Notes under the pieces: model-generated
What the model was told of the DNA's origin: nothing
The model's input: the letters and a program-made list of their open reading frames with translations, nothing else
Database searches by the model: none
From: a virus
Lineage: Duplodnaviria > Heunggongvirae > Uroviricota > Caudoviricetes
Length of the DNA stretch: 51,596 bases
Reading direction: 5' to 3' (one strand)
IMG/VR virus record: IMGVR_UViG_2718218098_000003
Shown: positions 9,335 through 47,920 of the stretch, one piece after another
Layout: each line of letters begins with the position of its first letter
Position numbering within the stretch: the stretch's first letter is position 1
Translations under genes and position numbers: made by a program

Positions 9335-10465
9335 ATGGCTTCAAACTGGATAAAGCTCGAGGTTATTACGCCGGATAAGCCGGAAATATTCAGGCTTGCT
9401 GAGATTCTGAATATTGATCCAGATGCCGCATTAGGGAAGGTTATTCGCTTCTGGGCATGGGCGGATCAACAAATGATAGACGGTAATGCAGATTGTAACG
9501 CTCGCGGCGTTACAAAAAGTGCAATAGATCGCATTACTTTTATGGCTGGTTTTGCTGATGCGTTAATTCAGGTTGGATGGCTGGTCGAAAATGACGGTGG
9601 GCTTTCTCTACCTAACTTTGAACGTCATAACGGGAAAAGCTCTAAAAAACGGGCGGTTACAAACGAGCGAGTTACAAAAATACGCGAACTGAAACGAAAA
9701 GGTAACGCTGCCAGCGTTACACAAAGGGATCAAAAAGCGTTACCAGAGGAAGAGGAAGAGGAAGATATAAATACTGATCTAACCCATCCCAAACCCTTCC
9801 CTTCCGGAAGGGAGTTCCGGGATTTTGTGGCGGGAGTGCTTGAGGGGAGATTATCTGGCGGTACTGCAGCGGAATTTTGTAATTCTGCGGTGGTTGCGTT
9901 GCAGGCTGCTGGCCTGGATGTCTGTCGTGAGTATCCGGTGCCAGAGCGTGGTGACGGTTGCGGAGGGCGGATTGATATCGTCGTGACTGACAGGAACGGT
10001 GTCCGGTGTGGGATCGAGCTTGACCGAAATTCTCCGCGACAGAAATCACTGCTCAAAATCGGTGCTGTTGAAACCGGGATATGTGTCTTGCGGCGCAGTG
10101 ATATCGCAAGGCACACCGAGCAGGGAATTCTGGTTATCGGTGGGGCTGTTCGCCAGAAAAAATTTGACCCGTTGTCAGTTGATCTGCCCGACTGGTTGCC
10201 AGAAACACTCTGGCATGAGTGGGTCCAGTTCAGGCAGGCATTGCGAAAACCGATTCGAACGGAGCAGGGCGCTAACGGGGCGATACGGGAGCTGGAAAAA
10301 TTCCGCCAGCAGGGTTTTACACCTGAGCAGGTGATTCGACACAGTATCGCCAATGAATACCAGGGCCTGTTCGCGCCGAAAGGTGTTCGGCCTGAGACGT
10401 TGCTCCGACAGGTTAACACCGTCTCGTTGCCGGACAGTGCGATCCCGCCAGGCTTCAGGGGGTAA
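9335..10465 (+). CDS. Phage replication initiator / replisome organiser with an extra central domain
   Basis: N-terminus WIKLEVITPDKPEIFRLAEILNIDPDAALGKVIRFWAWADQQ resembles replisome-organiser N-domain; followed by DnaC-like loader; central ~100 aa RIDIVVTD...GIELD looks nuclease-like. Confidence 0.6.
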   Translation: MASNWIKLEVITPDKPEIFRLAEILNIDPDAALGKVIRFWAWADQQMIDGNADCNARGVTKSAIDRITFMAGFADALIQVGWLVENDGGLSLPNFERHNGKSSKKRAVTNERVTKIRELKRKGNAASVTQRDQKALPEEEEEEDINTDLTHPKPFPSGREFRDFVAGVLEGRLSGGTAAEFCNSAVVALQAAGLDVCREYPVPERGDGCGGRIDIVVTDRNGVRCGIELDRNSPRQKSLLKIGAVETGICVLRRSDIARHTEQGILVIGGAVRQKKFDPLSVDLPDWLPETLWHEWVQFRQALRKPIRTEQGANGAIRELEKFRQQGFTPEQVIRHSIANEYQGLFAPKGVRPETLLRQVNTVSLPDSAIPPGFRG

Positions 10466-13520: not shown

Positions 13521-14541
13521 ATGAAATATACACCGGTTGGCGTTGATATCGCAAAACATCTGATTCAGGTTCACTTCATTGATGAGAACACAGGTGAAGT
13601 GGTGGATAAGCAACTTCGTGGCAGAGATTTTCTTGAATATTTCAGCAACCGGGAACCCTGCCTGATTGGTATGGAGGCCTGTGGAGGCTCTCAGCACTGG
13701 GCACGGGAGCTGACAAAGCTGGGGCATAACGTCCGCTTGTTACAGGCCCGCTTCGTTAAGGCATTCGTCATGGGAAACAAGAACGACGTGATGGATGCCC
13801 GGGCTATCTGGATGGCGGTTCAGCAGCCCGGTAAAGAAATTGCCGTCAAAACAGAAGAACAGCAGTCGGTACTGGTTCTGCACCGTACCCGCATGCAACT
13901 GGTGAAGTTCCGGACCGCACAAATTAACGCCCTACACGGGACGTTACTGGAGTTTGGTGAAACCATCCACAAAGGTCGGGCAGCAATGGAGCGGGAGTTC
14001 CCTGAAGCACTGGAACGAATGAAAGAGAGACTGCCACCGTATCTCATCACGGTACTGGAAAACCAGTATAAGCGGGTTGAATGAGCTGGACTCCCTGATA
14101 GAAGACATCGAAAAACAGCTTGCCAGCGTGGCGAAACAGAATGAGACCTGTAAGCGGTTGCTGGATATTCCTGGTGTTGGGCCACTTATTGCGACGGCAG
14201 CGGTGGCCACCATGGGGGAAGCATCAGCGTTTAAATCAGGGCGAGAGTTCGCGGCTTATGTTGGTCTGGTGCCCAAACAGACTGGCTCAGGAGGGAAAAT
14301 TCGCCTGCTGGGGATAAGCAAACGTGGTGATACATATCTGCGAACCCTGTTTATTCATGGCGCAAGGGCGGCAGCATTACTGACTAAAGAACCTGGTCCG
14401 TGGATAACCGAACTGAAAAAACGTCGTCCAGCCAGTGTGGCTATCGTCGCCATGGCAAACAAGCTGGCACGAACAGTATGGGCGATAGCTGCCCATGACC
14501 GTAAGTATGACAGGAACCATGTCAGTATCAGACCATATTAA
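13521..14541 (+). pseudogene. IS110-family recombinase/transposase, interrupted by a +1 frameshift near 14075-14080
   Basis: ORFs 13521-14084 and 14077-14541 together read as one ~340-aa protein (...LENQYKRV / NELDSLIEDIEK...); single extra base in cgggttgaatgag. Confidence 0.65.
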
Positions 14542-19232: not shown

Positions 19233-19307
19233 GGCCCTTTAGCTCAGTGGTGAGAGCGAGCGACTCATAATCGCCAGGTCGCTGGTTCAAATCCAGCAAG
19301 GGCCACC
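19233..19307 (+). tRNA. tRNA-Ile (anticodon CAU, lysidine-type; ileX/ileZ-like)
   Basis: Cloverleaf read by hand; anticodon loop ctCATaa; close to recalled E. coli ileX. Confidence 0.8.
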
Positions 19308-19309
19308 TG

Positions 19310-19386
19310 TCGTCACTAGCTCACCTGGAAAGAGCATCAACCTTCTAAGTTGAGCGTACGAGGTTCGAGTCCTCGGTGGCGGTCCA
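19310..19386 (+). tRNA. tRNA-Arg (anticodon UCU)
   Basis: Anticodon loop ctTCTaa, T-loop ttcgagt, CCA encoded. Confidence 0.65.
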
Positions 19387-19388
19387 GT

Positions 19389-19464
<76 letters not shown>

Positions 19465-19467
19465 TAT

Positions 19468-19542
<75 letters not shown>

Positions 19543-30733: not shown

Positions 30734-32228
30734 TCTTTCACACATTATTGCCGCAGCATTCAATGAACCGCTGCTTCTGGAGCCCGCCTATGCGCGGGTT
30801 TTCTTTTGCGCGCTCGGGCGCGAGATGGGGGCCGCAAGTCTTTCGGTACCGCAACAGCAGGTACAGCTTGATGCTCCCGGAATGCTGGCTGAAACGGACG
30901 AGTACATGGCCGGAGGTAAACGACCGGCCCGTGTTTACAGGGTGGTGAATGGTATTGCTGTACTGCCGGTGACAGGCACGCTGGTGCACCGGCTGGGGGG
31001 GATGCGGCCATTTTCCGGAATGACAGGTTATGACGGCATTGTCGCCTGTCTTCAGCAGGCAATGTCGGATACCCAGGTGCGGGGTGTACTGCTGGATATT
31101 GACAGTCCTGGTGGGCAGGCCGCCGGTGCGTTTGACTGCGCTGACATGATTTACCGCCTCCGGCAGCAGAAGCCTGTCTGGGCGCTGTGCAATGACACGG
31201 CCTGTTCTGCGGCAATGCTGCTGGCATCGGCCTGTTCCCGTCGGCTGATTACCCAGACATCCCGTATTGGCTCCATTGGCGTGATGATGAGCCATGTCAG
31301 CTATGCCGGTCATCTGGCGCAGGCCGGTGTGGATATCACGCTGATTTACTCAGGGGGGCACAAGGTGGATGGCAATCAGTTTGAATCCCTGCCGTCAGAG
31401 GTTCGTCAGGACATGCAGCAGCGCATTGATGCGGCGCGCCGGATGTTTGCTGAAAAAGTGGCGATGTATACCGGTTTATCTGTGGATACGGTTATGGGGA
31501 CAGAGGCCGCTGTTTTTGAAGGTCAGTCAGGTATTGAGGCCGGGCTGGCGGATGAATTAATCAATGCGTCGGATGCCATCAGCGTGATGGCCGCGACGCT
31601 GAACACACATGATACAGGAGGCACTATGCCGCAATTAACTGCAACGGAAGCCGTCGCGCAGGAGAACCAGCGAGTGATGGGGATCCTGACATGCCAGGAA
31701 GCGAAAGGACGTGAACAGCTTGCCTCGATGCTGGCAGGACAACAGGGCATGAGCGTTGAACAGGCCCGGGCGATTCTGGCCGCGGCGGCACCGCAGCAGC
31801 CGGTGGCATCCACGCAGAGTGAAGCCGATCGCATTATGGCGTGTGAAGAAGCGAACGGTCGTGAACAACTGGCGGCAACGCTGGCGACGATGCCGGAGAT
31901 GACGGTGGAAAAAGCCCGCCTGATCCTGGCTGCTTCACCGCAGGCGGATGCCGGACTATCACTCCGTGATCAAATCATGGCCCTGGATGAGGCGAAAGGG
32001 GCTGAGGCGCAGGCTGAAAAACTGGCGGCCTGCCCGGGGATGACCGTGGAGAATGCCCGGGCTGTACTGGCTGCTGCATCAGGTAAAGCTGAACCAGTCT
32101 CTGCCTCCACGATATCCATGTTTGAACGTTTCATGGCGAACCATTCACCGGCAGCGGTGCAGGGCGGCATGTCACAGACGTCAGCAGACGGTGATGCGGA
32201 CGTAAAAATGCTCATGGCCATGCCATAA
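30723..32228 (+). CDS. C: Head maturation protease C (S49 family) with nested scaffold (Nu3-like) C-terminal region
   Basis: 501 aa; S49 peptidase core; three ~45-aa repeats in C-terminal part. Confidence 0.8.
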   Translation: MRRNLSHIIAAAFNEPLLLEPAYARVFFCALGREMGAASLSVPQQQVQLDAPGMLAETDEYMAGGKRPARVYRVVNGIAVLPVTGTLVHRLGGMRPFSGMTGYDGIVACLQQAMSDTQVRGVLLDIDSPGGQAAGAFDCADMIYRLRQQKPVWALCNDTACSAAMLLASACSRRLITQTSRIGSIGVMMSHVSYAGHLAQAGVDITLIYSGGHKVDGNQFESLPSEVRQDMQQRIDAARRMFAEKVAMYTGLSVDTVMGTEAAVFEGQSGIEAGLADELINASDAISVMAATLNTHDTGGTMPQLTATEAVAQENQRVMGILTCQEAKGREQLASMLAGQQGMSVEQARAILAAAAPQQPVASTQSEADRIMACEEANGREQLAATLATMPEMTVEKARLILAASPQADAGLSLRDQIMALDEAKGAEAQAEKLAACPGMTVENARAVLAAASGKAEPVSASTISMFERFMANHSPAAVQGGMSQTSADGDADVKMLMAMP

Positions 32229-35083: not shown

Positions 35084-35475
35084 AACATACTGATATCCGT
35101 GCTGCAGTGCTGGATGCACTCGAGCAGCATGAACACGGGGCGACGCTGTTTGATGGTCGCCCCGTTGTTTTTGACGAAGAGGATTTTCCTGCGATCGCGG
35201 TTTATCTGACGGATGCAGAGTATACCGGTGAAGAGCTGGATGCAGATACCTGGCGGGCCACACTGCATATTGAGGTGTTTTTACCGGCACAGGTACCGGA
35301 TTCAGAGCTGGATTCGTGGATGGAAAGCCGGATTTATCCGGTGATGAGCGATATCCCGGCACTGTCAGATTTGATCACCAGTATGGTGGCCAGCGGCTAT
35401 GACTACCGGCGCGACGATGATGCGGGCCTGTGGAGTTCAGCCGATCTGACTTATGTCATTACCTATGAAATGTGA
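35080..35475 (+). CDS. U: Tail terminator protein U
   Basis: 131 aa, lambda gpU-like. Confidence 0.85.
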
Positions 35476-35482
35476 GGACGCT

Positions 35483-36223
35483 ATGCCTGTACCAAATCCT
35501 GTAATGCCGGTGAAAGGTGCCGGGACCACCCTGTGGGTTTATAAGGGGAGCGGTGACCCTTATGCGAATCCGCTTTCAGACGTTGACTGGTCGCGTCTGG
35601 CAAAAGTTAAAGACCTGGCGCCCGGCGAACTGACCGCTGAGTCCTATGACGACAGTTATCTCGATGATGAAGATGCGGACTGGACCGCGACCGGGCAGGG
35701 GCAGAAATCCGCCGGAGATACCAGCTTCACGCTGGCGTGGATGCCCGGAGAGCAGGGTCAGCAGGCGCTGCTGGCATGGTTTAATGAAGGTGATACCCGT
35801 GCCTATAAAATCCGCTTCCCGAACGGCACGGTCGATGTGTTCCGTGGCTGGGTCAGCAGTATCGGTAAGGCGGTGACGGCGAAGGAAGTGATCACCCGCA
35901 CAGTGAAGGTCACCAATGTGGGCCGTCCGTCGATGGCTGAAGATCGCAGCACGGTAACAGCGGCAACCGGCATGACCGTGACGCCTGCCAGCACCTCGGT
36001 GGTGAAAGGGAAGAGCATCACGCTGACCGTGGCATTCCAGCCGGAGGGCGCAACCGACAAGAGCTTCCGTGCGGTGTCAGCGGATAAAACAAAAGCCACC
36101 GTGTCGGTCAGTGGTATGACCATTACCGTGAACGGCGTTGCTGCAGGTAAGGTCAACATTCCGGTCGTATCCGGTAATGGTGAACTTGCTGCGGTTGCAG
36201 AAATCACCGTCACCGACAGTTAA
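35483..36223 (+). CDS. V: Major tail protein V
   Basis: 246 aa from [22 protein letters not shown]; C-terminal Ig-like domain. Confidence 0.9.
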
Positions 36224-36238
36224 TCCGGAGAGTCAGCG

Positions 36239-36661
36239 ATGTTCCTGAAAACTGAATCATTTGAATATAACGGCGTAAGCGTCACGCTTTCTGAACTGTC
36301 AGCCCTGCAGCGTATTGAGCATCTCGCCCTGCTGAAACGACAGGCAGAACGGGCGGGAGGTGGCGATAACCTGCTGGTGAGCGTGGAAGATCTCGTCAGA
36401 ACCGGCGCTTTTCTGGTAGCGATGTCCCTGTGGCATAACCATCCGCAGAAGACAAAGATGCCGTCCATGGATGAAGCCGTTAAACAGATTGAGCAGGAAG
36501 TGCTTACCACCTGGCCCACAGAGGCAATTGCTCAGGCTGAAAATGTGGTAATGCGTCTGTCCGGTATGTCTGAGTTTGTTGTGAATAATGCTCCTGAGCA
36601 GACAGAAGACGCCGGGCCTGCAGAGCCTGTTTCTGCGGGAAAGTGTTCGACGGTGAGCTGA
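36239..36661 (+). CDS. G: Tail assembly chaperone G
   Basis: 140 aa, lambda gpG-like. Confidence 0.85.
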   Translation: MFLKTESFEYNGVSVTLSELSALQRIEHLALLKRQAERAGGGDNLLVSVEDLVRTGAFLVAMSLWHNHPQKTKMPSMDEAVKQIEQEVLTTWPTEAIAQAENVVMRLSGMSEFVVNNAPEQTEDAGPAEPVSAGKCSTVS

Positions 36662-37077
36662 GTTTTGCCCTGAAACTGGCGCGCGAGATGGGGCGACCCG
36701 ACTGGCGCGCCATGCTTGCCGGGATGTCATCCACGGAGTATGCCGACTGGCACCGCTTTTACAGCACCCATTATTTTCATGATGTTCTGCTGGATATGCA
36801 CTTTTCCGGGCTGACGTACACCGTGCTCAGCCTGTTTTTCAGCGATCCGGATCTGCATCCGCTGGATTTCAGTCTGCTGAACCGGCGTGAGGTTGATGAA
36901 GCGTCTGAAGATGATGTGCTGATGCAGAAAGCGGCAGGGCTTGCCGGAGGCGTCCGCTTTGATCCGGACGGGAATGAAATTATCCCCGCGACCCCGGATG
37001 TGGCGGATATGACGGAGGATGACGTAATGCTGATGACAGTATCAGAAGGGATCGCAGGAGGAGTCCGGTATGGCTGA
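36239..37077 (+). CDS. Tail assembly chaperone G-T fusion made by -1 programmed frameshift
   Basis: Slippery heptamer gggaaag at 36637-36643 near the end of G; T frame continues to 37077. Confidence 0.7.
36637..36643 (+). promoter_or_regulatory. -1 ribosomal frameshift slippery site (G GGA AAG)
   Basis: Heptamer seen in sequence at the G/T junction. Confidence 0.7.
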
Positions 37078-39649
37078 ACCGGTAGGCGATCTGGTCGTTG
37101 ATTTAAGTCTGGATGCGGCCAGATTTGACGAGCAGATGGCCAGAGTCAGGCGTCATTTTTCCGGTACGGAAAGTGATGCGAAAAAAACAGCGGCAGTCGT
37201 TGAACAGTCGATGAACCGACAGGCACTGGCTGCACAGAAAGCGGGGATTTCCGTCGGGCAGTATAAAGCCGCCATGCGTATGCTGCCTGCGCAGTTCACC
37301 GACGTGGCCACGCAGCTTGCAGGCGGGCAGAGTCCGTGGCTGATCCTGCTGCAACAGGGTGGTCAGGTGAAGGACTCCTTCGGCGGGATGATCCCCATGT
37401 TCCGGGGGCTTGCCGGTGCGATCACCCTGCCGATGGTCGGGGCCACCTCGCTGGCGGTGGCGACCGGTGCGCTGGCGTATGCCTGGTATCAGGGCAACTC
37501 AACCCTGTCCAGTTTCAATAAAACGCTGGTCCTTTCCGGTAATCAGGCAGGACTGACGGCAGAGCGTATGCTGGTCCTGTCAAGAGCCGGGCAGGCGGCA
37601 GGGCTGACGTTTAACCAGACCAGCGAGTCACTGACGGCGCTGGTTAATGCCGGTGTGCGTGGTGGTGAGCAGTTTGAGGCAATCAGCCAGAGTGTGGCGC
37701 GTTTCTCCTCTGCATCCGGCGTGGAAGTGGACAAGGTCGCTGAAGCCTTCGGGAAGCTGACCACAGACCCGACGTCAGGGCTGACAGCGATGGCACGTCA
37801 GTTCCATAACGTGACGGCGGAGCAGATTGCGTATGTTGCTCAGTTGCAGCGTTCCGGCGATGAAGCCGGGGCATTGCAGGCGGCGAACGAGGCCGCAACG
37901 AAAGGGTTTGATGACCAGACCCGCCGCCTGAAAGAGAACATGGGCACGCTGGAGACCTGGGCAGACAGGACAGCGCGGGCATTCAAATCCATGTGGGATT
38001 CGGTGCTGGATATTGGTCGTCCGGACACAGCCCAGGAAATGCTGGAGAAAGCAGAAAAGGCTTTTGATGAGGCGGACAAAAAATGGCAGTGGTATCAGAG
38101 CCGGAGCCACCGGCGCGGTAAAACCTCAGCATTTCTTGCCAATCTCCGGGGAGCATGGGAGGACAGAGCGAATGCGCAACTTGGGCTTTCAGCTGCCACG
38201 TTGCAGGCCGATCTTGAAAAGGCCAGAGAGATGGCAGCAAAGGACTGGGCCGACTCTGAGGCTTCACGGCTGAAATATACCGAAGAGGCGCAGAAGGCTT
38301 ACGAACGTCTGCAGACGCCGCTGGAGAAATATACCGCCCGTCAGGAAGAACTGAATAAGGCACTGAAAGACGGGAAAATCCTGCAGGCAGATTACAACAC
38401 GCTGATGGCGGCGGCGAAAAAGGACTATGAAGCGACGCTGAAAAAGCCGAAACAGTCCGGCGTGAAGGTGTCTGCGGGCGATCGTCAGGAAGACAGTGCT
38501 CATGCCGCCCTGCTGACGCTTCAGGCTGAACTCCGGACGCTGGAGAAGCATGCCGGAGCGAATGAGAAAATCAGCCAGCAGCGCCGGGATTTGTGGAAGG
38601 CGGAAAGTCAGTATGCGGTCCTGAAGGAGGCTGCACAACGTCGCCAGCTGTCTGCACAGGAGAAATCCCTGCTGGCGCATAAAGATGAGACGCTGGAGTA
38701 CAAACGCCAGCTGGCTGCACTTGGCGACAAGGTTACGTATCAGGAGCGCCTGAACGCGCTGGCGCAGCAGGCGGATAAATTTGCACAGCAGCAACGGGCA
38801 AAACGGGCCGCCATTGATGCGAAAAGCCGGGGGCTGACTGACCGGCAGGCAGAACGGGAAGCCACGGAACAGCGCCTGAAGGAACAGTATGGCGATAATC
38901 CGCTGGCGCTGAATAACGTCATGTCAGAGCAGAAAAAGACCTGGGCGGCTGAAGACCAGCTTCGCGGGAGCTGGATGGCAGGCCTGAAGTCCGGCTGGAG
39001 TGAGTGGGAAGAGAGCGCCACGGACAGTATGTCGCAGGTAAAAAGTGCAGCCACGCAGACCTTTGATGGTATTGCACAGAATATGGCGGCGATGCTGACC
39101 GGCAGTGAGCAGAACTGGCGCAGCTTCACCCGTTCCGTGCTGTCCATGATGACAGAAATTCTGCTTAAGCAGGCAATGGTGGGGATTGTCGGGAGTATCG
39201 GCAGCGCCATTGGCGGGGCTGTTGGTGGCGGCGCATCCGCGTCAGGCGGTACAGCCATTCAGGCCGCTGCGGCGAAATTCCATTTTGCAACCGGAGGATT
39301 TACGGGAACCGGCGGCAAATATGAGCCAGCGGGGATTGTTCACCGTGGTGAGTTTGTCTTCACGAAGGAGGCAACCAGCCGGATTGGTGTCGGCAACCTG
39401 TACCGCCTGATGCGGGGCTATGCGGAAGGTGGTTATGTGGGCGGTGCCGGAAGTCCGGCGCAGATGCGGCGGGCTGAAGGCATTAATTTTAATCAGAACA
39501 ATCACGTGGTGATTCAGAACGACGGTACGAATGGTCTGCCAGGTCCACAGATGATGAAGGCAGTGTATGACATGGCCCGCAAGGGTGCCCGTGATGAAAT
39601 CCAGGCACAGATGCGCGATGGTGGCCTGTTCTCCGGAGGTGGACGATGA
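37070..39649 (+). CDS. H: Tail tape measure protein H
   Basis: 859 aa, lambda gpH-like. Confidence 0.9.
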   Translation: MAEPVGDLVVDLSLDAARFDEQMARVRRHFSGTESDAKKTAAVVEQSMNRQALAAQKAGISVGQYKAAMRMLPAQFTDVATQLAGGQSPWLILLQQGGQVKDSFGGMIPMFRGLAGAITLPMVGATSLAVATGALAYAWYQGNSTLSSFNKTLVLSGNQAGLTAERMLVLSRAGQAAGLTFNQTSESLTALVNAGVRGGEQFEAISQSVARFSSASGVEVDKVAEAFGKLTTDPTSGLTAMARQFHNVTAEQIAYVAQLQRSGDEAGALQAANEAATKGFDDQTRRLKENMGTLETWADRTARAFKSMWDSVLDIGRPDTAQEMLEKAEKAFDEADKKWQWYQSRSHRRGKTSAFLANLRGAWEDRANAQLGLSAATLQADLEKAREMAAKDWADSEASRLKYTEEAQKAYERLQTPLEKYTARQEELNKALKDGKILQADYNTLMAAAKKDYEATLKKPKQSGVKVSAGDRQEDSAHAALLTLQAELRTLEKHAGANEKISQQRRDLWKAESQYAVLKEAAQRRQLSAQEKSLLAHKDETLEYKRQLAALGDKVTYQERLNALAQQADKFAQQQRAKRAAIDAKSRGLTDRQAEREATEQRLKEQYGDNPLALNNVMSEQKKTWAAEDQLRGSWMAGLKSGWSEWEESATDSMSQVKSAATQTFDGIAQNMAAMLTGSEQNWRSFTRSVLSMMTEILLKQAMVGIVGSIGSAIGGAVGGGASASGGTAIQAAAAKFHFATGGFTGTGGKYEPAGIVHRGEFVFTKEATSRIGVGNLYRLMRGYAEGGYVGGAGSPAQMRRAEGINFNQNNHVVIQNDGTNGLPGPQMMKAVYDMARKGARDEIQAQMRDGGLFSGGGR

Positions 39650-39975
39650 AAACCTTCCGCTGGAAAGTGAAACCCGGGATGGATGTGACATCGGCTCCTT
39701 CCGTCAGGGAGGTGCGCTTTGGTGATGGCTATTCCCAGCGAGCGCCTGCCGGGCTGAATGCCAACCTGAAAACGTACAGCGTGACGCTGTCTGTCTCCCG
39801 TGAGGAGGCCACGGCGCTGGAGTCGTTTCTGGCTGAGCACGGGGGCTGGAAGGCCTTTCTGTGGACGCCGCCTTATGGTTACAGGCAGATAAAGGTGACC
39901 TGCGCAAAATGGTCGTCGCGGGTCAGTATGCTGCGTGTTGAGTTCAGCGCAGAGTTTGAACAGGTGGTGAACTGA
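39646..39975 (+). CDS. M: Tail tip protein M
   Basis: 109 aa, lambda gpM-like. Confidence 0.85.
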   Translation: MKTFRWKVKPGMDVTSAPSVREVRFGDGYSQRAPAGLNANLKTYSVTLSVSREEATALESFLAEHGGWKAFLWTPPYGYRQIKVTCAKWSSRVSMLRVEFSAEFEQVVN

Positions 39976-40673
39976 TGCAGGATATCCGGCAGGAAACATT
40001 GAATGAATGCACCCGTGCGGAGCAGTCGGCCAGCGTGGTGCTCTGGGAAATCGACCTGACCGAGGTAGGCGGGGAACGCTACTTTTTCTGTAATGAGCAG
40101 AACGAAAAAGGTGAGCCGGTCACCTGGCAGGGGCGACAGTATCAGCCGTATCCCATTCAGGGGAGTGGTTTTGAACTGAATGGCAAAGGCACCAGTACGC
40201 GCCCCACACTGACGGTTTCTAACCTGTACGGTATGGTCACCGGGATGGCGGAAGATCTGCAGAGTCTGGTCGGCGGAACGGTGGTCCGGCGTAAGGTTTA
40301 CGCCCGTTTTCTGGATGCGGTGAACTTCGTCAACGGAAACAGTGACGCCGATCCGGAGCAGGAGGTGATCAGCCGCTGGCGCATCGAGCAGTGCAGCGAA
40401 CTGAGCGCGGTCAGTGCCTCCTTTGTGTTGTCCACGCCGACGGAAACGGATGGTGCTGTTTTTCCGGGGCGCATCATGCTGGCCAACACCTGCACCTGGA
40501 CCTATCGCGGTGATGAGTGCGGTTATAGCGGTCCGGCGGTCGCGGATGAATATGACCAGCCGACGTCCGATATCACGAAGGATAAATGCAGCAAATGCCT
40601 GAGCGGTTGTAAGTTCCGCAATAACGTCGGCAACTTTGGCGGCTTCCTTTCCATTAACAAACTTTCGCAGTAA
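39975..40673 (+). CDS. L: Tail tip protein L
   Basis: 232 aa, lambda gpL-like. Confidence 0.85.
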   Translation: MQDIRQETLNECTRAEQSASVVLWEIDLTEVGGERYFFCNEQNEKGEPVTWQGRQYQPYPIQGSGFELNGKGTSTRPTLTVSNLYGMVTGMAEDLQSLVGGTVVRRKVYARFLDAVNFVNGNSDADPEQEVISRWRIEQCSELSAVSASFVLSTPTETDGAVFPGRIMLANTCTWTYRGDECGYSGPAVADEYDQPTSDITKDKCSKCLSGCKFRNNVGNFGGFLSINKLSQ

Positions 40674-40678
40674 ATCCC

Positions 40679-41422
40679 ATGACACAGACAGAATCAGCGA
40701 TTCTGGCGCACGCCCGGCGATGTGCGCCAGCGGAGTCGTGCGGCTTCGTGGTAAGCACGCCGGAGGGGGAAAGATATTTCCCCTGCGTGAATATCTCCGG
40801 TGAGCCGGAGGCGTATTTCCGTATGTCGCCGGAAGACTGGCTGCAGGCAGAAATGCAGGGTGAGATTGTGGCGCTGGTCCACAGCCACCCCGGTGGTCTG
40901 CCCTGGCTGAGTGAGGCCGACCGGCGGCTGCAGGTACAGAGTGATTTGCCGTGGTGGCTGGTCTGCCGGGGGGCGATTCATAAATTCCGCTGTGTGCCGC
41001 ATCTCACCGGGCGGCGCTTTGAGCACGGGGTGACGGACTGTTACACGCTGTTCCGGGACGCTTACCATCTGGCGGGAATTGAGATGCCGGATTTTCATCG
41101 CGGGGATGACTGGTGGCGTCACGGCCAGAATCTCTATCTGGATAATCTGGAGGCCACAGGGCTGTATCAGGTGCCGTTGTCATCAGCACAACCGGGCGAT
41201 GTGCTGCTGTGCTGTTTTGGTTCATCGGTGCCGAATCATGCCGCCATTTACTGTGGTGACGGCGGGCTGCTGCACCATATTCCTGAACAACTGAGCAAAC
41301 GAGAGAGGTATACCGACAAATGGCAGCGACGCACACACTCCCTCTGGCGTCACCGGGCATGGCGCGCATCTGCCTTTACGGGGATTTACAACGATTTGGC
41401 CGCCGCATCGACCTTCGTGTGA
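40679..41422 (+). CDS. K: Tail tip assembly protein K (MPN/JAB + NlpC/P60-like)
   Basis: 247 aa; HSHPGG JAB-type motif; lambda gpK-like. Confidence 0.85.
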   Translation: MTQTESAILAHARRCAPAESCGFVVSTPEGERYFPCVNISGEPEAYFRMSPEDWLQAEMQGEIVALVHSHPGGLPWLSEADRRLQVQSDLPWWLVCRGAIHKFRCVPHLTGRRFEHGVTDCYTLFRDAYHLAGIEMPDFHRGDDWWRHGQNLYLDNLEATGLYQVPLSSAQPGDVLLCCFGSSVPNHAAIYCGDGGLLHHIPEQLSKRERYTDKWQRRTHSLWRHRAWRASAFTGIYNDLAAASTFV

Positions 41423-41992
41423 AAACGGGGGCTGAAGCTATCCGCGCACTGGCCACACAGCTCCCGGCGTTTCGTCAGAAACTGAGCAACGGCTGGTATC
41501 AGGTACGGATTGCCGGGCGGGACGTCAGCACGTCCGGGTTAACGGCGCAGTTACATGAGACTCTGCCTGATGGCGCTGTGATTCATATTGTTCCCAGAGT
41601 CGCCGGGGCCAAGTCAGGTGGCGTATTCCAGATTGTCCTGGGGGCTGCCGCCATTGCCGGATCATTCTTTACCGCCGGAGCCACCCTTGCAGCATGGGGG
41701 GGCAGCCATTGGGGCCGGTGGTATGACCGGCATCCTGTTTTCTCTCGGTGCCAGTATGGTGCTCGGTGGTGTGGCGCAGATGCTGGCACCGAAAGCCAGA
41801 ACTCCCCGTACACAGACAACGGATAACGGTAAGCAGAACACCTATTTCTCCTCACTGGATAACATGGTTGCCCAGGGCAATGTTCTGCCTGTTCTGTACG
41901 GGGAAATGCGCGTGGGGTCACGCGTGGTTTCTCAGGAGATCAGCACGGCAGACGAAGGGGACGGTGGTCAGGTTGTGGTGATTGGTCGCTGA
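41320..41992 (+). pseudogene. I: Tail assembly protein I, disrupted by +1 frameshift in a G7 tract (41696-41702)
   Basis: ORFs 41320-41826 and 41588-41992 join into one gpI-like protein if one G is removed. Confidence 0.6.
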
Positions 41993-42012
41993 TGCAAAAT
42001 GTTTTATGTGAA

Positions 42013-42035
42013 ACCGCCTGCGGGCGGTTTTGTCA
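42013..42035 (+). terminator. Weak hairpin between I and J
   Basis: aaaccgcctgcgggcggttttgtcattt. Confidence 0.3.
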
Positions 42036-42052
42036 TTTATGGAGCGTGAGGA

Positions 42053-45000
42053 ATGGGTAAAGGAAGCAGTAAGGGGCATACCCCGCGCGAAGCGAAGGAC
42101 AACCTGAAGTCCACGCAGTTGCTGAGTGTGATCGATGCCATCAGCGAAGGGCCGGTTGAAGGTCCGGTGGATGGATTAAAAAGCGTGCTGCTGAACAGTA
42201 CGCCGGTGCTGGACACTGAGGGGAATACCAACATCTCCGGTGTCACGGTGGTGTTCCGTGCCGGTGAGCAGGAGCAGACACCGCCGGAGGGGTTTGAATC
42301 CTCCGGCTCCGAGACGGTGCTGGGTACGGAAGTGAAATATGACACGCCGATCACCCGCACCATCACGTCGGCAAACATCGACCGACTGCGCCTGACCTTT
42401 GGTGTGCAGGCACTGGTGGAAACCACCTCAAAGGGGGACCGGAATCCGTCGGAAGTCCGCCTGCTGGTTCAGATACAACGTAACGGTGGCTGGGTGACGG
42501 AAAAAGACATCACCATTAAGGGCAAAACCACCTCACAGTATCTGGCCTCGGTGGTGGTGGGTAACCTGCCGCCGCGCCCGTTTAATATCCGGATGCGCAG
42601 GCTGACGCCGGACAGCACCACAGACCAGCTGCAGAACAAAACGCTCTGGTCGTCATACACCGAAATCATCGATGTGAAACAGTGCCACCCGAACACGGCA
42701 CTGGTCGGCGTACAGGTGGATTCGGAGCAGTTCGGCAGCCAGCAGGTGAGCCGCACTTACCATTTCCGTGGGCGTATTCTGCAGGTGCCGTCGAACTATA
42801 ACCCGCAGACACGGCAATACAGCGGTATCTGGGACGGCACCCTCAAACCGGCATACAGCGACAACCCGGCCTGGTGTCTGTGGGATATGCTGACCCACCC
42901 GCGCTACGGCATGGGGAAACGTCTTGGTGCGGCAGATGTGGATAAATGGGCGCTGTATGTCATCGGCCAGTATAGTGACCAGTCAGTGCCGGACGGCTTT
43001 GGTGGCACGGAGCCGCGCATCACCTGTAATGCGTGGCTGACCACACAGCGCAAGGCGTGGGATGTTCTCAGTGATTTCTGCTCGGCGATGCGCTGTATGC
43101 CGGTATGGAACGGGCAGACGCTGACGTTCGTGCAGGACCGGCCGTCGGATAAGGTGTGGACCTATAACCGCAGTAATGTGGTGATGCCGGAGGATGGCGC
43201 GCCGTTCCGCTACAGCTTCAGCGCCCTGAAGGACCGCCATAATGCCGTTGAGGTGAACTGGATTGACCCGGATAACGGCTGGCAGACGGCGACAGAGCTT
43301 GTGGAGGACACGCAGGCCATTGCCCGTTACGGTCGTAACGTCACGAAGATGGATGCCTTTGGCTGTACCAGCCGGGGGCAGGCGCACCGCGCCGGGCTGT
43401 GGCTGATTAAAACGGAGCTGCTGGAAACGCAGACCGTGGACTTCAGCGTGGGTGCCGAAGGGCTTCGCCATGTACCGGGCGATGTCATTGAAATCTGCGA
43501 TGATGACTATGCCGGTATCAGCACCGGTGGTCGCGTGCTGGCGGTGAACAGCCAGACCCGGACGCTGACGCTCGACCGTGAAATCACGCTGCCATCCTCC
43601 GGCACCACGCTGATAAGCCTGGTTGACGGAAATGGCAATCCGGTCAGCGTGGAGGTTCAGTCCGTCACCGACGGCGTGAAGGTGAAAGTGAGCCGGGTTC
43701 CTGACGGCGTTGCTGAATACAGCGTGTGGGGGCTGAAGCTGCCGACGCTGCGCCAGCGCCTGTTCCGCTGCGTGAGTATCCGTGAGAACGACGACGGCAC
43801 GTATGCCATCACCGCCGTGCAGCATGTACCGGAAAAAGAGGCCATCGTGGATAACGGGGCGCACTTTGACGGCGACCAGAGCGGCACGGTGAATGGTGTC
43901 ACGCCGCCAGCGGTGCAGCACCTGACTGCCGAAGTCACCGCAGACAGCGGGGAATATCAGGTGCTGGCCCGCTGGGACACGCCGAAGGTGGTGAAGGGCG
44001 TGAGCTTCCTGCTTCGCCTGACCGTGGCAGCGGATGACGGCAGTGAGCGGCTGGTCAGCACGGCCCGGACGACGGAAACCACATACCGCTTCAGGCAGCT
44101 GGCGCTGGGGCGTTACATGCTGACGGTCCGGGCGGTAAATGCGTGGGGGCTGCAGGGCGATCCGGCATCGGTATCGTTCCGGATTGCCGCACCGGCAGTG
44201 CCGTCGCGGATTGAGCTGACGCCGGGCTATTTTCAGATAACCGCCACGCCGCATCTTGCCGTTTATGACCCGACGGTACAGTTTGAGTTCTGGTTCTCGG
44301 AAACGCGGATTACCGATATCAGGCAGGTAGAAACCACAGCCCGCTATCTTGGTACGGCGCTATACTGGATAGCCGCCAGTATCAATATCAAACCGGGCCA
44401 TGATTATTACTTTTATATCCGCAGTGTGAACACCGTTGGCAAATCGGCATTCGTGGAGGCCGTCGGTCGGGCGAGCGATGATGCGGAAGGTTACCTGGAT
44501 TTTTTCAAAGGCAAGATAACCGAATCCCATCTCGCCAAGGAGCTGCTGGAAAAAGTTGATCTGACGGAGGATAACGCCAGCAGACTGGAGCAGTTTTCGA
44601 AAGCGTGGAAGGACGCTAACGATAAATGGAATGCGATGTGGGGCGTCAAAATTGAGCAGACCAAAGACGGCAAACATTATGTCGCGGGTATTGGCCTCAG
44701 CATGGAGGACACGGAGGAAGGCAAGCTGAGCCAGTTTCTGGTTGCCGCTAACCGTATCGCGTTTATTGACCCGGCAAACGGGAATGAAACGCCGATGTTT
44801 GTGGCGCAGGGCAACCAGATATTCATGAACGACGTGTTCCTGAAGCGCCTGACAGCCCCCGCCATTACCAGCGGTGGCAGTCCTCCGGTATTTTCCCTGA
44901 CATCAGACGGAAAGCTGACCGCTAAAAATGCGGATATCAGTGGTAGTGTGAATGCGAACTCAGGAACGCTCAACAATGTCACGATTAACCAGAACTGTAC

Positions 45001-45466
45001 GATTAAGGGCATGCTGGAGGCGACCCAGGTCAGAGGGGATTTCGTTAAAGCTGTATCAAAAGCCTTCCCGAAAAAAGTCGGTACGTGGGGTAACACGGAA
45101 ACACCAGACGGTACGGTTACAGTCACCATCAGCGATGATCATAACTTTGACCGCCAGATTATTATTCCGCCCATTATTTTTAACGGTATAGCGTATGACG
45201 ATCCGGGGAGCGGAAATAACCCGGGAGGCACGCGATACACGGGTTATGGTTTTGAAGTTCGCAAAAACGGCGTATTAATCGCATCCAGAGAAACTAAAGG
45301 GGCCATTCCCGGTAGTTACAGTGCAGTTATTGATATGCCTAGTGGTGGTGGTAGCGTCACTCTGGAGTTTAAGATTTTCCAGAAAGGCAATCAGGGGGCA
45401 GGCAATATCACCGACTGTACGGTGATTGTGACCAAAAAAGCGGCTTCCGGCATCAGTATTCGTTGA
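42053..45466 (+). CDS. J: Host specificity / central tail fibre protein J
   Basis: 1137 aa, lambda gpJ-like over full length. Confidence 0.9.
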
Positions 45467-45488
45467 AATATTTATAACCCCAATAAAT

Positions 45489-45512
45489 GGCGTCAGGAAT
45501 GACGCCTTTTTT
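45489..45512 (+). terminator. Intrinsic terminator after J
   Basis: ggcgtcaggaatgacgcc + tttttt. Confidence 0.6.
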
Positions 45513-45536
45513 ATTGCAGAAAAGCGAGAGGTAATT

Positions 45537-46136
45537 ATGCGTAAAGTTTGTGCCGCCATTTTGTCCGCAGCCATTTGTCTGGCCGTATCCGGTGCGCCTG
45601 CATGGGCGTCTGAACATCAGTCCACGCTGAGCGCGGGGTATCTTCATGCCCGGACCAACGTTCCCGGCAGTGATGATCTGAACGGGATTAACGTGAAATA
45701 CCGTTATGAGTTTACGGATACGCTGGGGCTGGTGACGTCATTCAGCTATGCAGGAGACAAGAATCGCCAGCTGACCCATTACAGCGATACCCGCTGGCAT
45801 GAAGATTCCGTTCGTAACCGCTGGTTCAGCGTAATGGCGGGGCCGTCTGTGCGCGTGAATGAATGGTTCAGCGCGTATGCGATGGCGGGTGTGGCTTACA
45901 GCCGTGTGTCGACTTTCTCCGGGGATTATCTCCGCGTAACTGACAACAAGGGGAAAACGCACGACGTGCTGACCGGAAGTGATGACGGTCGCCACAGCAA
46001 CACGTCTCTGGCGTGGGGAGCTGGCGTGCAGTTTAACCCGACCGAATCCGTGGCCATTGATATTGCTTATGAAGGCTCCGGCAGTGGCGACTGGCGCACT
46101 GACGGTTTCATCGTGGGTGTCGGTTATAAGTTCTGA
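45537..46136 (+). CDS. lom: Outer-membrane protein Lom (Ail/Lom family)
   Basis: 199 aa, signal peptide, C-terminal AYEGSGSGDWRTDGFIVGVGYKF. Confidence 0.85.
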   Translation: MRKVCAAILSAAICLAVSGAPAWASEHQSTLSAGYLHARTNVPGSDDLNGINVKYRYEFTDTLGLVTSFSYAGDKNRQLTHYSDTRWHEDSVRNRWFSVMAGPSVRVNEWFSAYAMAGVAYSRVSTFSGDYLRVTDNKGKTHDVLTGSDDGRHSNTSLAWGAGVQFNPTESVAIDIAYEGSGSGDWRTDGFIVGVGYKF

Positions 46137-46162
46137 TTAGCCAGGTAACACAGTGTTATGAC

Positions 46163-46189
46163 AGCCCGCCGGTTCAGGCGGGCTTTTTT
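46163..46189 (+). terminator. Intrinsic terminator after lom
   Basis: agcccgccggttcaggcgggctttttt. Confidence 0.65.
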
Positions 46190-46200
46190 GTGGGGTGAAT

Positions 46201-47370
46201 ATGGCAGTAAAGATTTCAGGTGTACTGAAAGACGGTACAGGAAAAGCGGTGCCGGGATGTGTCATCCGGCTGAAGGCAAAACGGACCAGTGCCACAGTGA
46301 TAGTGCATACCGTGGCCTCCTGTGAACCCGGTGATGCCGGTCGCTACAGTATGTCAGTGGAGCCGGGGAATTACAGCGTCATTCTGCAGACAGAAGGGTA
46401 TCCGCCGGTGTATGCCGGAGAGATAACCGTCAGTGAAAAATCCCGTGCAGGGACGCTGAATGAGTTTTTGCTGAATGAAGAAACGGCGGCGGAATATCCC
46501 AGAGCACTGGCAGAGCTGGAGGCCGTTGCTGCAGAAATCCTTGAACGGGCACGCGGGAGTGAATCCCGTGCGGAAGAAGCAGCCCGACGGGCAGAAAATG
46601 CACGGGGGCCGAAGGGGGACAAAGGGAATACGGGACCGCAGGGGCAGCCAGGACCGAAAGGTGACCGGGGTGAGACCGGCCCCAGAGGGGAGCGGGGCAT
46701 GACAGGTGCACAGGGTGTACCGGGACCCAGGGGTGAGCGGGGCGAAAAAGGGGAAAAAGGTGACCCCGGCGGCCCGCAGGGTCCCCGGGGGGACACCGGT
46801 CCGGCGGGGCCACAGGGACCCAGAGGTGATACCGGAGAGCGGGGAGTACCAGGACCTCAGGGGCCGAAAGGCGACGCAGGGCCAAAGGGTGAGCCTGGTC
46901 CGAAAGGCGACACAGGTCCGAAGGGTGAACGGGGACCAAAAGGCGACACAGGTCCGAAGGGTGAACAGGGGCTGAAAGGCGACACCGGTCCGGCAGGGCC
47001 ACGTGGTCCCAGAGGTGATACGGGACCCGCGGGTCCACGTGGGCCAGCTGGCAGTGATAATGCTTACAGCAGGGCAGAGTCGGATGCCCGCTACCGTAAT
47101 ACCGGCGAGGGAGGGATTAATGGCTGGGAGCGGGATACGGCTACAGGGATTATGAGACAGTGGGGTGTGTTTGCCGTTGCAGGTCGTTACGGTAACCAGT
47201 GTCGTTTTCCTGTTCCGTTTCCTCAGGGACCGTGGAATATCCAGCTGACAGTAAAGGACGATTTATCAGCAACCGTGCCGTGCGTGATGAGTATGACAGA
47301 CAGCGGGTTTACCGTTGGCACCATAAATGAATGGTTTGGTGAGGTTTACTGGTATGCAACAGGATGTTAA
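46201..47370 (+). CDS. stf: Side tail fibre protein with collagen-like Gly-X-Y repeats
   Basis: N-terminus [20 protein letters not shown] (stf-type); ~160 aa of GxY triplets ([26 protein letters not shown]...). Confidence 0.8.
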
Positions 47371-47380
47371 AGGAGAGAAC

Positions 47381-47920
47381 ATGGGTAAATATATTTACTC
47401 ACCATCACGTAACCTGTTTTATCCGGTTGCACTGAAGGCGGTTTATGAACACGCCGGTCGCTGGCCGGAGGATGGCAGGGTGGTGGCTGATGAGGTGTAC
47501 CGTGAACAGACGGATGTGGTGACAGGAGAAAATGAAACAGCGGAGATTGCCCGTGAACGCAAGCTGGCAGAAATCAGCCGCTGGCGTGATGAACAGGAGA
47601 ATGCGGGGGTGATATTTGAGTGGCATGGGCACCGCTGGGATGGTGGTAAGGCTGCCCGCAGCCGTCTGTCTCCGGTTACAGCCGTGGCACAGTCGGGAGC
47701 ACTTCCTGAAGGTTTTTTCTGGACGGATGTGGATAACCGGGATGTGAGACTGACGGCGGAAGAACTGGTACAACTGGATGGCGCAATGCTGCAGGCAATG
47801 GTGATGCGGGGTTTTAAAATTCATGAGCGTCAGCGGCAGATGAAAGAGGCTGTTGAGCGTCTGACGGTGACAGAGGAAATTAACCGGTTTGTTGTCGGAT
47901 GGGAGGGAGATGATGAGTAA
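47381..47920 (+). CDS. tfa: Tail fibre assembly protein
   Basis: 179 aa, SD aggag; position after stf. Confidence 0.65.
   Translation: MGKYIYSPSRNLFYPVALKAVYEHAGRWPEDGRVVADEVYREQTDVVTGENETAEIARERKLAEISRWRDEQENAGVIFEWHGHRWDGGKAARSRLSPVTAVAQSGALPEGFFWTDVDNRDVRLTAEELVQLDGAMLQAMVMRGFKIHERQRQMKEAVERLTVTEEINRFVVGWEGDDE

What the first reader, a model, noticed from the sequence alone, without database searches (positions are those of the whole stretch)
41694..41704. Frameshift in tail assembly gene I at a G7 homopolymer
Two overlapping ORFs (41320-41826, 41588-41992) form a single gpI-like protein only if one G is removed from the run at 41696-41702 (...AAWG then GAAIGAGGMTGILF... in the next frame). 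It is either a sequencing error at a homopolymer, an inactivating mutation making the prophage tail-defective, or a slippage-prone tract.
Basis: seen in the sequence. Interest (0 to 1): 0.35.

Follow-up and report, generated by a model that had tools for sequence, protein, structure and literature searches.

The report
Frameshifted prophage tail gene I
A lambda-like prophage in a mouse-gut E. coli clone has one extra G in a run of six in tail-tip gene I, which cuts off the part of the protein that sits in the tail tip; this is an ordinary prophage pseudogene that the public annotation already flags.

Summary
Window 41696-41702 is G7, and removing one G joins ORFs 41320-41826 and 41588-41992 into a 223-aa protein that is 221/223 identical to phage lambda gpI. 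The window is E. coli strain M6 (mouse faeces). It holds a Rac/lambda hybrid prophage between yebY and pphA. RefSeq already annotates this gene as "tail assembly protein, frameshifted". G7 occurs in all five sister assemblies (M6, M9, M11, M15, M19) and in none of the other roughly 2,780 complete E. coli genomes that carry the same 81-nt segment. It is also absent from every phage record and from IMG/VR. Three other genomes that appear to come from the same submission batch show G6 in identical flanks, and the five assemblies differ from one another elsewhere. A real, clonally inherited +1 slippage mutation is therefore more likely (about 0.8) than an assembly error (about 0.12), though only reads can settle this. 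The truncated product keeps the ubiquitin-like N-domain. It loses residues 128-223, which cryo-EM places in the tail-tip lumen as hydrophobic helices, plug and gpJ-binding strands. On its own the prophage should make defective tails. Nothing supports a programmed or phase-variable frameshift. Interest is low.

The parts
41320..41826 (+). 5' reading frame of gene I. It encodes 127 native gpI residues (M1-G127, including the ubiquitin-like PF06805 domain at 14-97 and the GG at 100-101), followed by 41 out-of-frame residues and a TAA stop.
   Evidence: ORF list; Pfam PF06805 E=6.3e-29 at residues 14-97; codon listing
41696..41702 (+). G7 homopolymer, one G longer than the G6 (TGG GGG GCA = W126 G127 A128) of lambda and of every other copy surveyed. 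This is the frameshift site.
41702..41992 (+). 3' part of gene I in the +1 frame: A128-R223 plus stop. It encodes the rest of hydrophobic helix H1, helix H2, the plug (159-175) and the beta strands that bind gpJ. It is no longer translated from the I start codon.
   Evidence: ORF 41588..41992; alignment to 8iyk_I; domain description in PMC11101478 and PMC10721106
41723..41992 (+). Internal ATG ORF (M135-R223, 89 aa). Gene callers report it as a separate 'tail assembly protein, partial' when I is broken. It has no convincing ribosome-binding site (GGTGGT abuts the ATG), and the ATG lies in a 6-bp hairpin.
   Evidence: exact sequence present in 223 contigs; loci; hairpin 41714-41731
40679..41422 (+). 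Gene K (247 aa, Prok-JAB + NlpC/P60), intact. It overlaps the start of I by 103 nt, as in lambda.
42053..45466 (+). Gene J (1137 aa, central tail fibre / tip attachment protein), intact. It is the structural partner of the lost gpI C-terminal part.
   Evidence: PMC10721106

Best explanation
A single G was inserted into the G6 tract of gene I (TGG GGG GCA), presumably by replication slippage, in the ancestor of the mouse-gut E. coli clone M6/M9/M11/M15/M19, and has been inherited since. Translation from the I start now yields 127 native residues plus 41 nonsense residues. The ubiquitin-like N-domain is kept. Residues 128-223, the part built into the tail-tip lumen, are lost. Those residues form the helices H1 and H2, a plug that closes the tube under the tape-measure protein, and beta strands that augment gpJ sheets. 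Gene I is therefore a pseudogene. The otherwise complete Rac/lambda hybrid prophage should be unable to build functional tail tips on its own. Shown here: the indel, its restriction to one clone, the intact ancestral allele, and which residues are lost. Inferred: that the call reflects the DNA rather than the assembler, that slippage was the cause, and that tails are defective.
For: The G7 tract and the frames are established. The window is 100% identical to strain M6. PGAP marks the gene 'frameshifted' in all five M strains.

All five assemblies carry G7 while differing elsewhere. M6 and M9 differ by 1 indel and 29 substitutions in 50 kb, and M6 and M19 by 42 substitutions and no indel in 30 kb. 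The assemblies also differ in size and orientation.

Of 2,786 complete E. coli genomes carrying the 81-nt segment, only these five have G7. IMG/VR has 0 G7 against at least 120 G6. All phage records are 672 nt. GTDB species representatives have 0.

Strains H15, D3 and H8, which have neighbouring accession numbers and locus-tag prefixes, show G6 in identical 36+38-nt flanks. Other G6/C6 and G7 runs in the window lie in intact ORFs. A 50-kb sample of M6 outside the prophage has frameshifts only in an IS66 transposase and a gene remnant.

The repaired 223-aa protein exists exactly in other E. coli (P0136), so the allele differs from an intact one by this base alone. The closest related prophages, from mouse strains RSHH22 and IGC_EcoliInv_1.1, have G6 and an intact I. 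The IGC prophage sits at about the Rac position of K-12 and is probably KingRac, which was shown to form particles and lysogenise (PMC6731689).

Cryo-EM papers place gpI residues 101-223 or 135-223 in the virion tip as plug and gpJ-binding strands.
Against: No reads are available. All five assemblies come from one submitter, the sequencing platform could not be established, and a recurrent consensus error at this site cannot be formally excluded. M6 carries at least one other single-base insertion (IS110 transposase, 14073-14075) that its sister assemblies lack, so the assembly may not be error-free.

Tail defectiveness is inferred from lambda genetics and structure, not tested. The M genomes contain a second I-like sequence (2 places per record) that I could not characterise and that might complement in trans.
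Confidence: 0.8

Rival explanations
1. Assembly or consensus error. The DNA is G6 and the gene intact, and the extra G is a homopolymer miscall repeated in the five assemblies of this clone.
For: Homopolymer indels are the typical residual error of long-read assemblies (general knowledge). Databases hold many broken gpI genes from visibly noisy assemblies, such as P0004, P0016, P0023, P0025 and loci L008, L014, L015. G5 calls occur in 13 unrelated complete genomes. M6 alone has an extra G in an IS110 transposase. The neighbouring gene K shows how one missing G in the 1982 lambda reference persisted as a '199 aa' annotation.
Against: The same +1 appears in five assemblies that differ from each other elsewhere. 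Three other genomes of what appears to be the same batch call G6 in identical flanks. Six G6/C6 runs (1007, 28427, 31353, 32380, 40968, 46787) and the G7 run at 30995 lie inside ORFs that read through intact. Only one indel discrepancy occurs per 50 kb between sister assemblies. Residual homopolymer errors are more often deletions than insertions (general knowledge, in line with G5 being commoner than G7).
Confidence: 0.12
2. A functional slippery or switchable tract. G7 is read through by +1 ribosomal slippage (tRNA-Gly re-pairing from GGG 41698-41700 to GGG 41699-41701) or by transcriptional slippage, or G6/G7 toggles as a phase-variable switch of prophage infectivity. The prophage would then be leaky or reversibly off.
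For: A +1 slip on G GGG GGG allows perfect re-pairing and would restore the exact wild-type protein. gpI is needed at only three copies per virion (PMC11101478), so a low level might suffice. Both tract lengths, G5 and G7, occur in nature.
Against: G7 is confined to one clone, and non-G6 lengths are about 0.5% of some 3,550 copies. The other major gpI allele (215 aa) has no run longer than G5 anywhere, so the tract is not a conserved feature of the family. The 0-frame codon after the slip site is the common GGC, so there is no stop or hungry codon. The downstream RNA fold is not significant (z = -1.8, with 10 of 200 shuffles as good). There is no Rfam hit. Known bacterial transcriptional slippage uses runs of about 9 or more A/T (general knowledge). 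The genuinely programmed site of this operon, GGGAAAG in G/GT, is present and separate.
Confidence: 0.05
3. A split but still working gene. The ubiquitin-like N-domain and the C-terminal 89 residues (M135-R223, from the internal ATG at 41723) are made as two polypeptides that together replace gpI.
For: One cryo-EM model of the virion starts at residue 135 (PMC10721106), and chains in 9E7M cover 133-222. Iyer et al. predicted that the JAB domain of K cleaves the Ub-like domain off gpI (PMC1779556), so the two parts may separate naturally.
Against: There is no usable ribosome-binding site at proper spacing. The ATG lies inside a hairpin. Ribosomes in the other frame run 34 codons past it, so stop-start coupling is not available; it would be in the G5 variant. 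The other cryo-EM model resolves residues from 101, so helix H1 (about 101-130) would be missing or scrambled.
Confidence: 0.03

Closest known systems
Phage lambda gene I / gpI (tail tip assembly protein I; Pfam PF06805; PDB 8IYK, 8IYL, 8K35, 8XCG, 9E7M)
   Same: DNA is 99.0% identical over the whole gene. The repaired protein is 221/223 identical. The position is the same, between K and J, with the same ~103-nt overlap with K.
   Different: One extra G after codon 127 puts residues 128-223 out of frame. Lambda and all other phage records have G6.
The stf frameshift of laboratory lambda (PaPa), which removes the side tail fibres
   Same: A single-base frameshift in a tail gene of a lambdoid phage splits one gene into two ORFs and persists in a lineage (cited in PMC10721106).
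   Different: stf is dispensable for plaque formation. By classical lambda genetics (own knowledge) I is required for tail assembly, and it is a structural tip component. The consequence here should be loss of infectivity, not altered adsorption.
Programmed -1 frameshift G/GT of lambdoid tail chaperones
   Same: It lies in the same late operon and also yields two reading frames from overlapping ORFs.
   Different: G/GT uses a conserved heptamer (GGGAAAG, present here at 36637-36643) found across the family. The I-gene G7 is private to one clone, needs a +1 shift and has no stimulatory element.
KingRac prophage of mouse commensal E. coli (Frazao et al. 2019, PMC6731689)
   Same: It has a Rac-like early region plus a lambda-like tail module, comes from a mouse-gut E. 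coli host, and is 96% identical over the 12-kb tail region with the same gene order.
   Different: That relative has G6 and an intact I, and was shown to produce particles and lysogenise. The M-strain prophage sits at yebY-pphA rather than the Rac site and carries the frameshift. Equating locus L007 with KingRac is my inference from its map position.

Membership tests
Lambda tail tip assembly protein I (gpI, PF06805 family) | N-terminal ubiquitin-like beta-grasp domain (Pfam Lambda_tail_I) ending in conserved Gly | tested here: met
   PF06805 E=6.3e-29, residues 14-97 of the 168-aa ORF...AGAKSGG follows
Lambda tail tip assembly protein I (gpI, PF06805 family) | C-terminal domain (Gly-rich hydrophobic helices, plug, gpJ-binding strands) in the same reading frame | tested here: not met
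   Residues 128-223 are encoded only in the +1 frame (41702-41992). The frames rejoin only if one G is removed. The locus is therefore a pseudogene of the family rather than an intact member.
Lambda tail tip assembly protein I (gpI, PF06805 family) | Gene lies between K (JAB + NlpC/P60) and J | tested here: met
   K at 40679-41422 has Prok-JAB and NLPC_P60; J is at 42053-45466
Programmed ribosomal frameshift site | Shift site conserved among homologues | tested here: not met
   G7 occurs in 5 of 2,786 genomes, all one clone, in 0 of at least 120 IMG/VR copies and in 0 phage records. The 215-aa allele lacks the run.
Programmed ribosomal frameshift site | Stimulator: a stop or rare codon in the A site, an upstream SD-like element at fixed spacing, or a downstream structure | tested here: not met
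   The next 0-frame codon is GGC. The fold of 41690-41790 gives z = -1.79. There is no Rfam match above chance.
Phase-variable homopolymer (contingency) locus | Tract length polymorphic at appreciable frequency between and within strains | tested here: not met
   Between strains: G7 in 5 records and G5 in 13 records, against about 2,800 with G6. All five M assemblies are G7. Within-culture heterogeneity is not testable without reads.
Assembly artefact at a homopolymer | Not reproducible between separate assemblies, or recurrent in the same context elsewhere in the same batch | tested here: not met
   Reproduced in five assemblies. The same context is called G6 in H15, D3 and H8. That these belong to the same batch is inferred from neighbouring accession numbers and locus-tag prefixes.
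Assembly artefact at a homopolymer | Reads contradict the consensus | not testable with these tools
   No read data are accessible.

The most novel reading that the evidence does not exclude
The G tract of gene I acts as a reversible or leaky switch. The G7 prophage stays silent for infectious particle production but can regain it, either by G7-to-G6 slippage or by low-level +1 decoding that supplies the three gpI copies a virion needs. That would give this mouse-gut clone a prophage held in reserve.
Probability: 0.04. Interest if true: 0.4.

Novelty: already known. Interest (0 to 1): 0.08.

Why it matters
It matters little beyond correct annotation. The finding marks one lambdoid prophage of a mouse commensal E. 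coli clone as probably tail-defective. That is relevant to anyone using strains M6-M19 for prophage induction or phage-mediated gene-transfer experiments in the mouse gut, where a close relative with an intact gene I is demonstrably active. It is also a small worked example of telling a real homopolymer frameshift from an assembly error by comparing sister assemblies and same-batch controls.

Tried and rejected
1. I looked for the exact 168-aa, 155-aa, 135-aa and 134-aa frameshift products in the 15-billion-protein collection, hoping for independent (for example Illumina) assemblies of the allele. None is present. The homology search returned only other kinds of broken gpI.

2. I fetched genomes that encode the stand-alone 89-aa C-terminal ORF. 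Among the ten loci, one has G5 at the tract, eight have G6 and one did not match the pattern; several of them are broken elsewhere in I. None has G7.

3. Pattern scans of the metagenome and GTDB collections found one human-gut contig with G7. It has coverage 0.37 and 5 gaps in 1.1 kb, so it is uninformative.

4. A literature search for the accession numbers, aimed at learning the sequencing platform, found only a paper stating that the strains come from mouse faeces.

5. I tried to locate the second I-like copy in the M genomes, to test trans-complementation, by querying with the other major I allele. The tool lists one place per record and M6 was not among the rows shown, so this was abandoned.

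6. I checked the other frames and the opposite strand. There were no Pfam hits for ORFs 41583-41921(-), 41662-41841(-) or 41748-41981(+) and no RNA family, so they were rejected as coding or RNA features.

7. A short 45-nt seed trick to pull out G7 alleles only was considered and dropped, because by my own hand calculation of the DUST score BLAST's low-complexity filter would probably mask a 7-base run at seeding (not tested). Identity bands on 81- and 79-nt queries were used instead.

Full report
**Observation.** In the first frame the codons run GCA GCA TGG GGG GGC AGC CAT TGG (A A W G G S H W). In the second they run GGG GGG GCA GCC ATT GGG GCC GGT GGT ATG (G G A A I G A G G M), and this second frame is +1 relative to the first. 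A model with one G removed aligns with no other difference.

**Identity of the gene.** The 673-nt stretch matches 206 phage records. The best matches, including lambda itself (J02459/NC_001416, 14773-15444, gene I), are 99.0-99.3% identical, and each spans 672 nt in the record against 673 in the window. Pfam places Lambda_tail_I (PF06805, E=6e-29) at residues 14-97 of the first ORF. It finds nothing in the second ORF, and it finds Prok-JAB plus NlpC/P60 in the upstream 247-aa gene K. The repaired 223-aa protein matches PDB chain 8iyk_I (lambda tail tip assembly protein I) end to end at E=1.3e-140, with two substitutions, D56N and I164T. The gene order is L, K, I, J, lom, as in lambda.

**Where the window comes from.** A 12-kb query (35400-47400) is 100.0% identical to E. 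coli strain M6 (NZ_CP010186.1, host mouse) and 99.7-99.8% identical to strains M9, M11, M15 and M19. The RefSeq annotation of M6 shows a complete-looking prophage between yebY and pphA:
- early region: integrase, excisionase, recET, ralR, kil, repressors, ydaT/U/V-like replication genes, and a tRNA cluster;
- lysis genes;
- late region: a full lambda-like head and tail module.

In all five strains PGAP marks gene I as "tail assembly protein, frameshifted". It is the only frameshifted gene of the late operon. The finding is therefore already recorded in the public annotation.

**How common the G7 allele is.**
- An 81-nt query centred on the run finds the segment in 2,786 of 5,426 complete E. 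coli genomes (3,545 places). Only five records are 100% identical, the five M strains. The listed rows below them are 98.8% identical with an 80-nt span, which means G6.
- The corresponding G5 query finds 13 exact records from unrelated strains.
- GTDB species representatives have none.
- The metagenome collection has one: a 1.1-kb human-gut contig with coverage 0.37 and five gaps relative to the window, which is too noisy to count.
- The other major gpI allele (215 aa, cluster P0106 with 6,374 members) has no G run longer than five anywhere, so the tract is not a conserved feature of the family.

**Real mutation or assembly error.** No reads are available, so this is a weighing of indirect evidence.

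For a real mutation:
- All five assemblies carry G7 while differing elsewhere. M6 and M9 differ by one indel and 29 substitutions over 50 kb, and M6 and M19 by 42 substitutions and no indel over 30 kb. Their chromosomes also differ in size and orientation. They are therefore separate assemblies, with at most about one indel discrepancy per 50 kb.
- Strains H15, D3 and H8 have neighbouring accession numbers and locus-tag prefixes, so I infer they come from the same batch. They have exactly the same 36+38-nt flanks and G6. This argues against a context-specific overcall.
- Six other G6/C6 runs and one other G7 run in the window sit inside ORFs that read through intact.
- A 50-kb sample elsewhere in M6 shows frameshift flags only on an IS66 transposase and a gene remnant, while a 9.7-kb cdiA and all the chromosomal housekeeping genes in the sample are intact.
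- The repaired protein, including its unusual N56, exists exactly in other E. coli (P0136: 10 contigs, four listed accessions). The allele is therefore one base away from a known intact one.

For an error:
- One submitter produced all five genomes, and I could not establish the platform.
- M6 has an extra G in an IS110 transposase (GG to GGG at 14073-14075) that M9 and M19 lack at the same locus.
- Databases contain many broken gpI genes from noisy assemblies.

I put a real, clonally inherited insertion at about 0.8 and an artefact at about 0.12.

**Consequence.** Two cryo-EM studies show gpI as a trimer inside the lambda tail-tip cone. In one, residues 135-223 form a tripod under the C-terminal coiled coil of the tape-measure protein and bind gpJ by three beta-sheet augmentations (PMC10721106). 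In the other, residues from 101 on are resolved as two hydrophobic helices H1/H2, a plug (159-175) and beta strands threading between the gpJ hub domains. The N-terminal domain is not seen (PMC11101478).

The G7 allele keeps M1-G127, which is the ubiquitin-like domain, the GG at 100-101 and about 26 residues of helix H1, and then adds 41 unrelated residues. Everything that is built into the tip after residue 127 is lost. By classical lambda genetics (my own knowledge) gene I is required for tail assembly. The inference is that this prophage cannot make functional tails by itself.

Three routes could soften this: a second I-like sequence in the M genomes (two places per record, not characterised), reversion to G6, or rare +1 decoding.

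The closest relatives are prophages of the mouse strains RSHH22 and IGC_RcoliRes/IGC_EcoliInv. They are 96% identical over the 12-kb tail region, with the same gene order; RSHH22 and IGC_EcoliInv, whose sequences I fetched, have G6 and an intact I. The IGC invader's copy lies at about the Rac position of K-12, so it is probably the KingRac prophage, which was shown to form particles and to lysogenise in the mouse gut (PMC6731689). That identification is my inference. The module is thus active when I is intact.

**Programmed or switchable frameshift.** A +1 slip of tRNA-Gly from GGG (41698-41700) to GGG (41699-41701) would re-pair perfectly and restore the exact wild-type protein, so some background read-through is conceivable. 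Nothing marks it as programmed:
- the allele is private to one clone;
- the following 0-frame codon is the common GGC;
- the fold of 41690-41790 is not unusual (z = -1.79, with 10 of 200 shuffles as stable);
- Rfam gives only a chance-level hit (E=0.97, 20.5 bits against a gathering score of 60);
- a short hairpin at 41714-41731 is also present in every wild-type copy.

The operon's real programmed site, GGGAAAG at the end of G, is present at 36637-36643. Tract-length variants total about 0.5% of copies. That fits a mutational or sequencing hot spot, not a contingency locus. The other frames and the opposite strand hold nothing recognisable.

**Split-gene idea.** The internal ATG at 41723 opens an 89-aa ORF (M135-R223) that coincides with the part modelled in one virion structure, and gene callers report this ORF in 223 contigs. 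Iyer et al. predicted that the JAB domain of K cleaves the ubiquitin-like domain off gpI (PMC1779556). In the G7 allele, however, there is no properly spaced ribosome-binding site, the ATG is inside the hairpin, and the upstream frame runs 34 codons past it, so coupling is not available. I give this 0.03.

**Verdict.** Of the three alternatives offered, the inactivating mutation is best supported and the sequencing error is second. The slippage-prone reading holds only as the cause of the mutation. This is an ordinary prophage pseudogene that RefSeq already flags. Interest is low (0.08) and novelty is "already known".

Noticed in passing
window 14073-14075 (IS110-family transposase, ORFs 13521-14084 and 14077-14541): A second single-base frameshift (AGCGGGTTG against AGCGGTTG) splits an IS110 transposase inside the prophage. 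It is present in M6 only: M9 and M19 have the intact 1300-nt form at the same locus. M6 has the 1301-nt form at another genomic site too (158724-160024). This is either an M6 polishing artefact in a repeated element or a real mutation that has spread among IS copies.
   Followed up: partly
window 42859-44118 (gene J), also 46635-47494 (stf region): The five sister strains differ from one another almost only by dense clusters of substitutions inside gene J. M9, M11 and M15 differ from M6 at 26 sites in 43273-43909. M19 differs at other patches, 42859-43314 and 43927-44118. There are no indels. This looks like gene conversion between paralogous J genes of co-resident lambdoid prophages, or chimeric polishing of repeats.
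   Followed up: partly
window 40813 (gene K, 40679-41422); lambda NC_001416 14266/14267: The classic lambda reference (J02459/NC_001416) lacks one G present here (CCGGAGGC-TATTTCCG). That puts the first 45 codons of the 247-aa K, including what I take to be the JAMM-motif Glu (my reading of 'PAESCGF'), in another frame, and explains the '199 aa' K annotation. Re-sequenced lambda records (KT232076, LC730321 at 48,503 nt, PV340536, the OM4186xx series) and DE3 match the window exactly. The 199-aa K therefore appears to be a legacy error in the 1982 sequence.
   Followed up: yes
other genomes (hits H151-H163; locus L008 1469-1487): The G5 (-1) version of the same tract occurs in 13 unrelated complete E. 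coli genomes. In that version the N-terminal ORF ends ...AAWGQPLGPVV-TGA, with the stop overlapping the ATG of Met135 (ATGA). That stop-start arrangement could couple translation of the 89-aa C-terminal part, which is exactly the piece modelled in the virion. Whether these are real alleles, long-read deletion errors or functional split genes was not examined.
   Followed up: no
window 19233-19542: The prophage carries a tRNA cluster. ARAGORN gives CAT (which PGAP calls tRNA-Ile, i.e. Ile2), Arg(UCU), Thr(UGU) and Gly(UCC). The Gly(UCC) tRNA reads GGA/GGG. No link to the G tract was found.
   Followed up: no
window 9335-10465: A single 376-aa ORF is annotated by PGAP as two 'incomplete' pseudogene fragments: a hypothetical N-terminal part and a YdaU-family C-terminal part. 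It is either a mosaic replication-initiator gene or a rearranged one. If defective, it would be a second lesion in the prophage.
   Followed up: no
window 41419 against 41320: PGAP starts the I pseudogene at the GTG at 41419, which overlaps the K stop by four bases, giving a 190-aa protein in relatives. The lambda annotation and the PDB entries use the ATG at 41320 (223 aa, 103-nt overlap with K). The Pfam domain begins at residue 14 of the long form, which supports the upstream start.
   Followed up: partly
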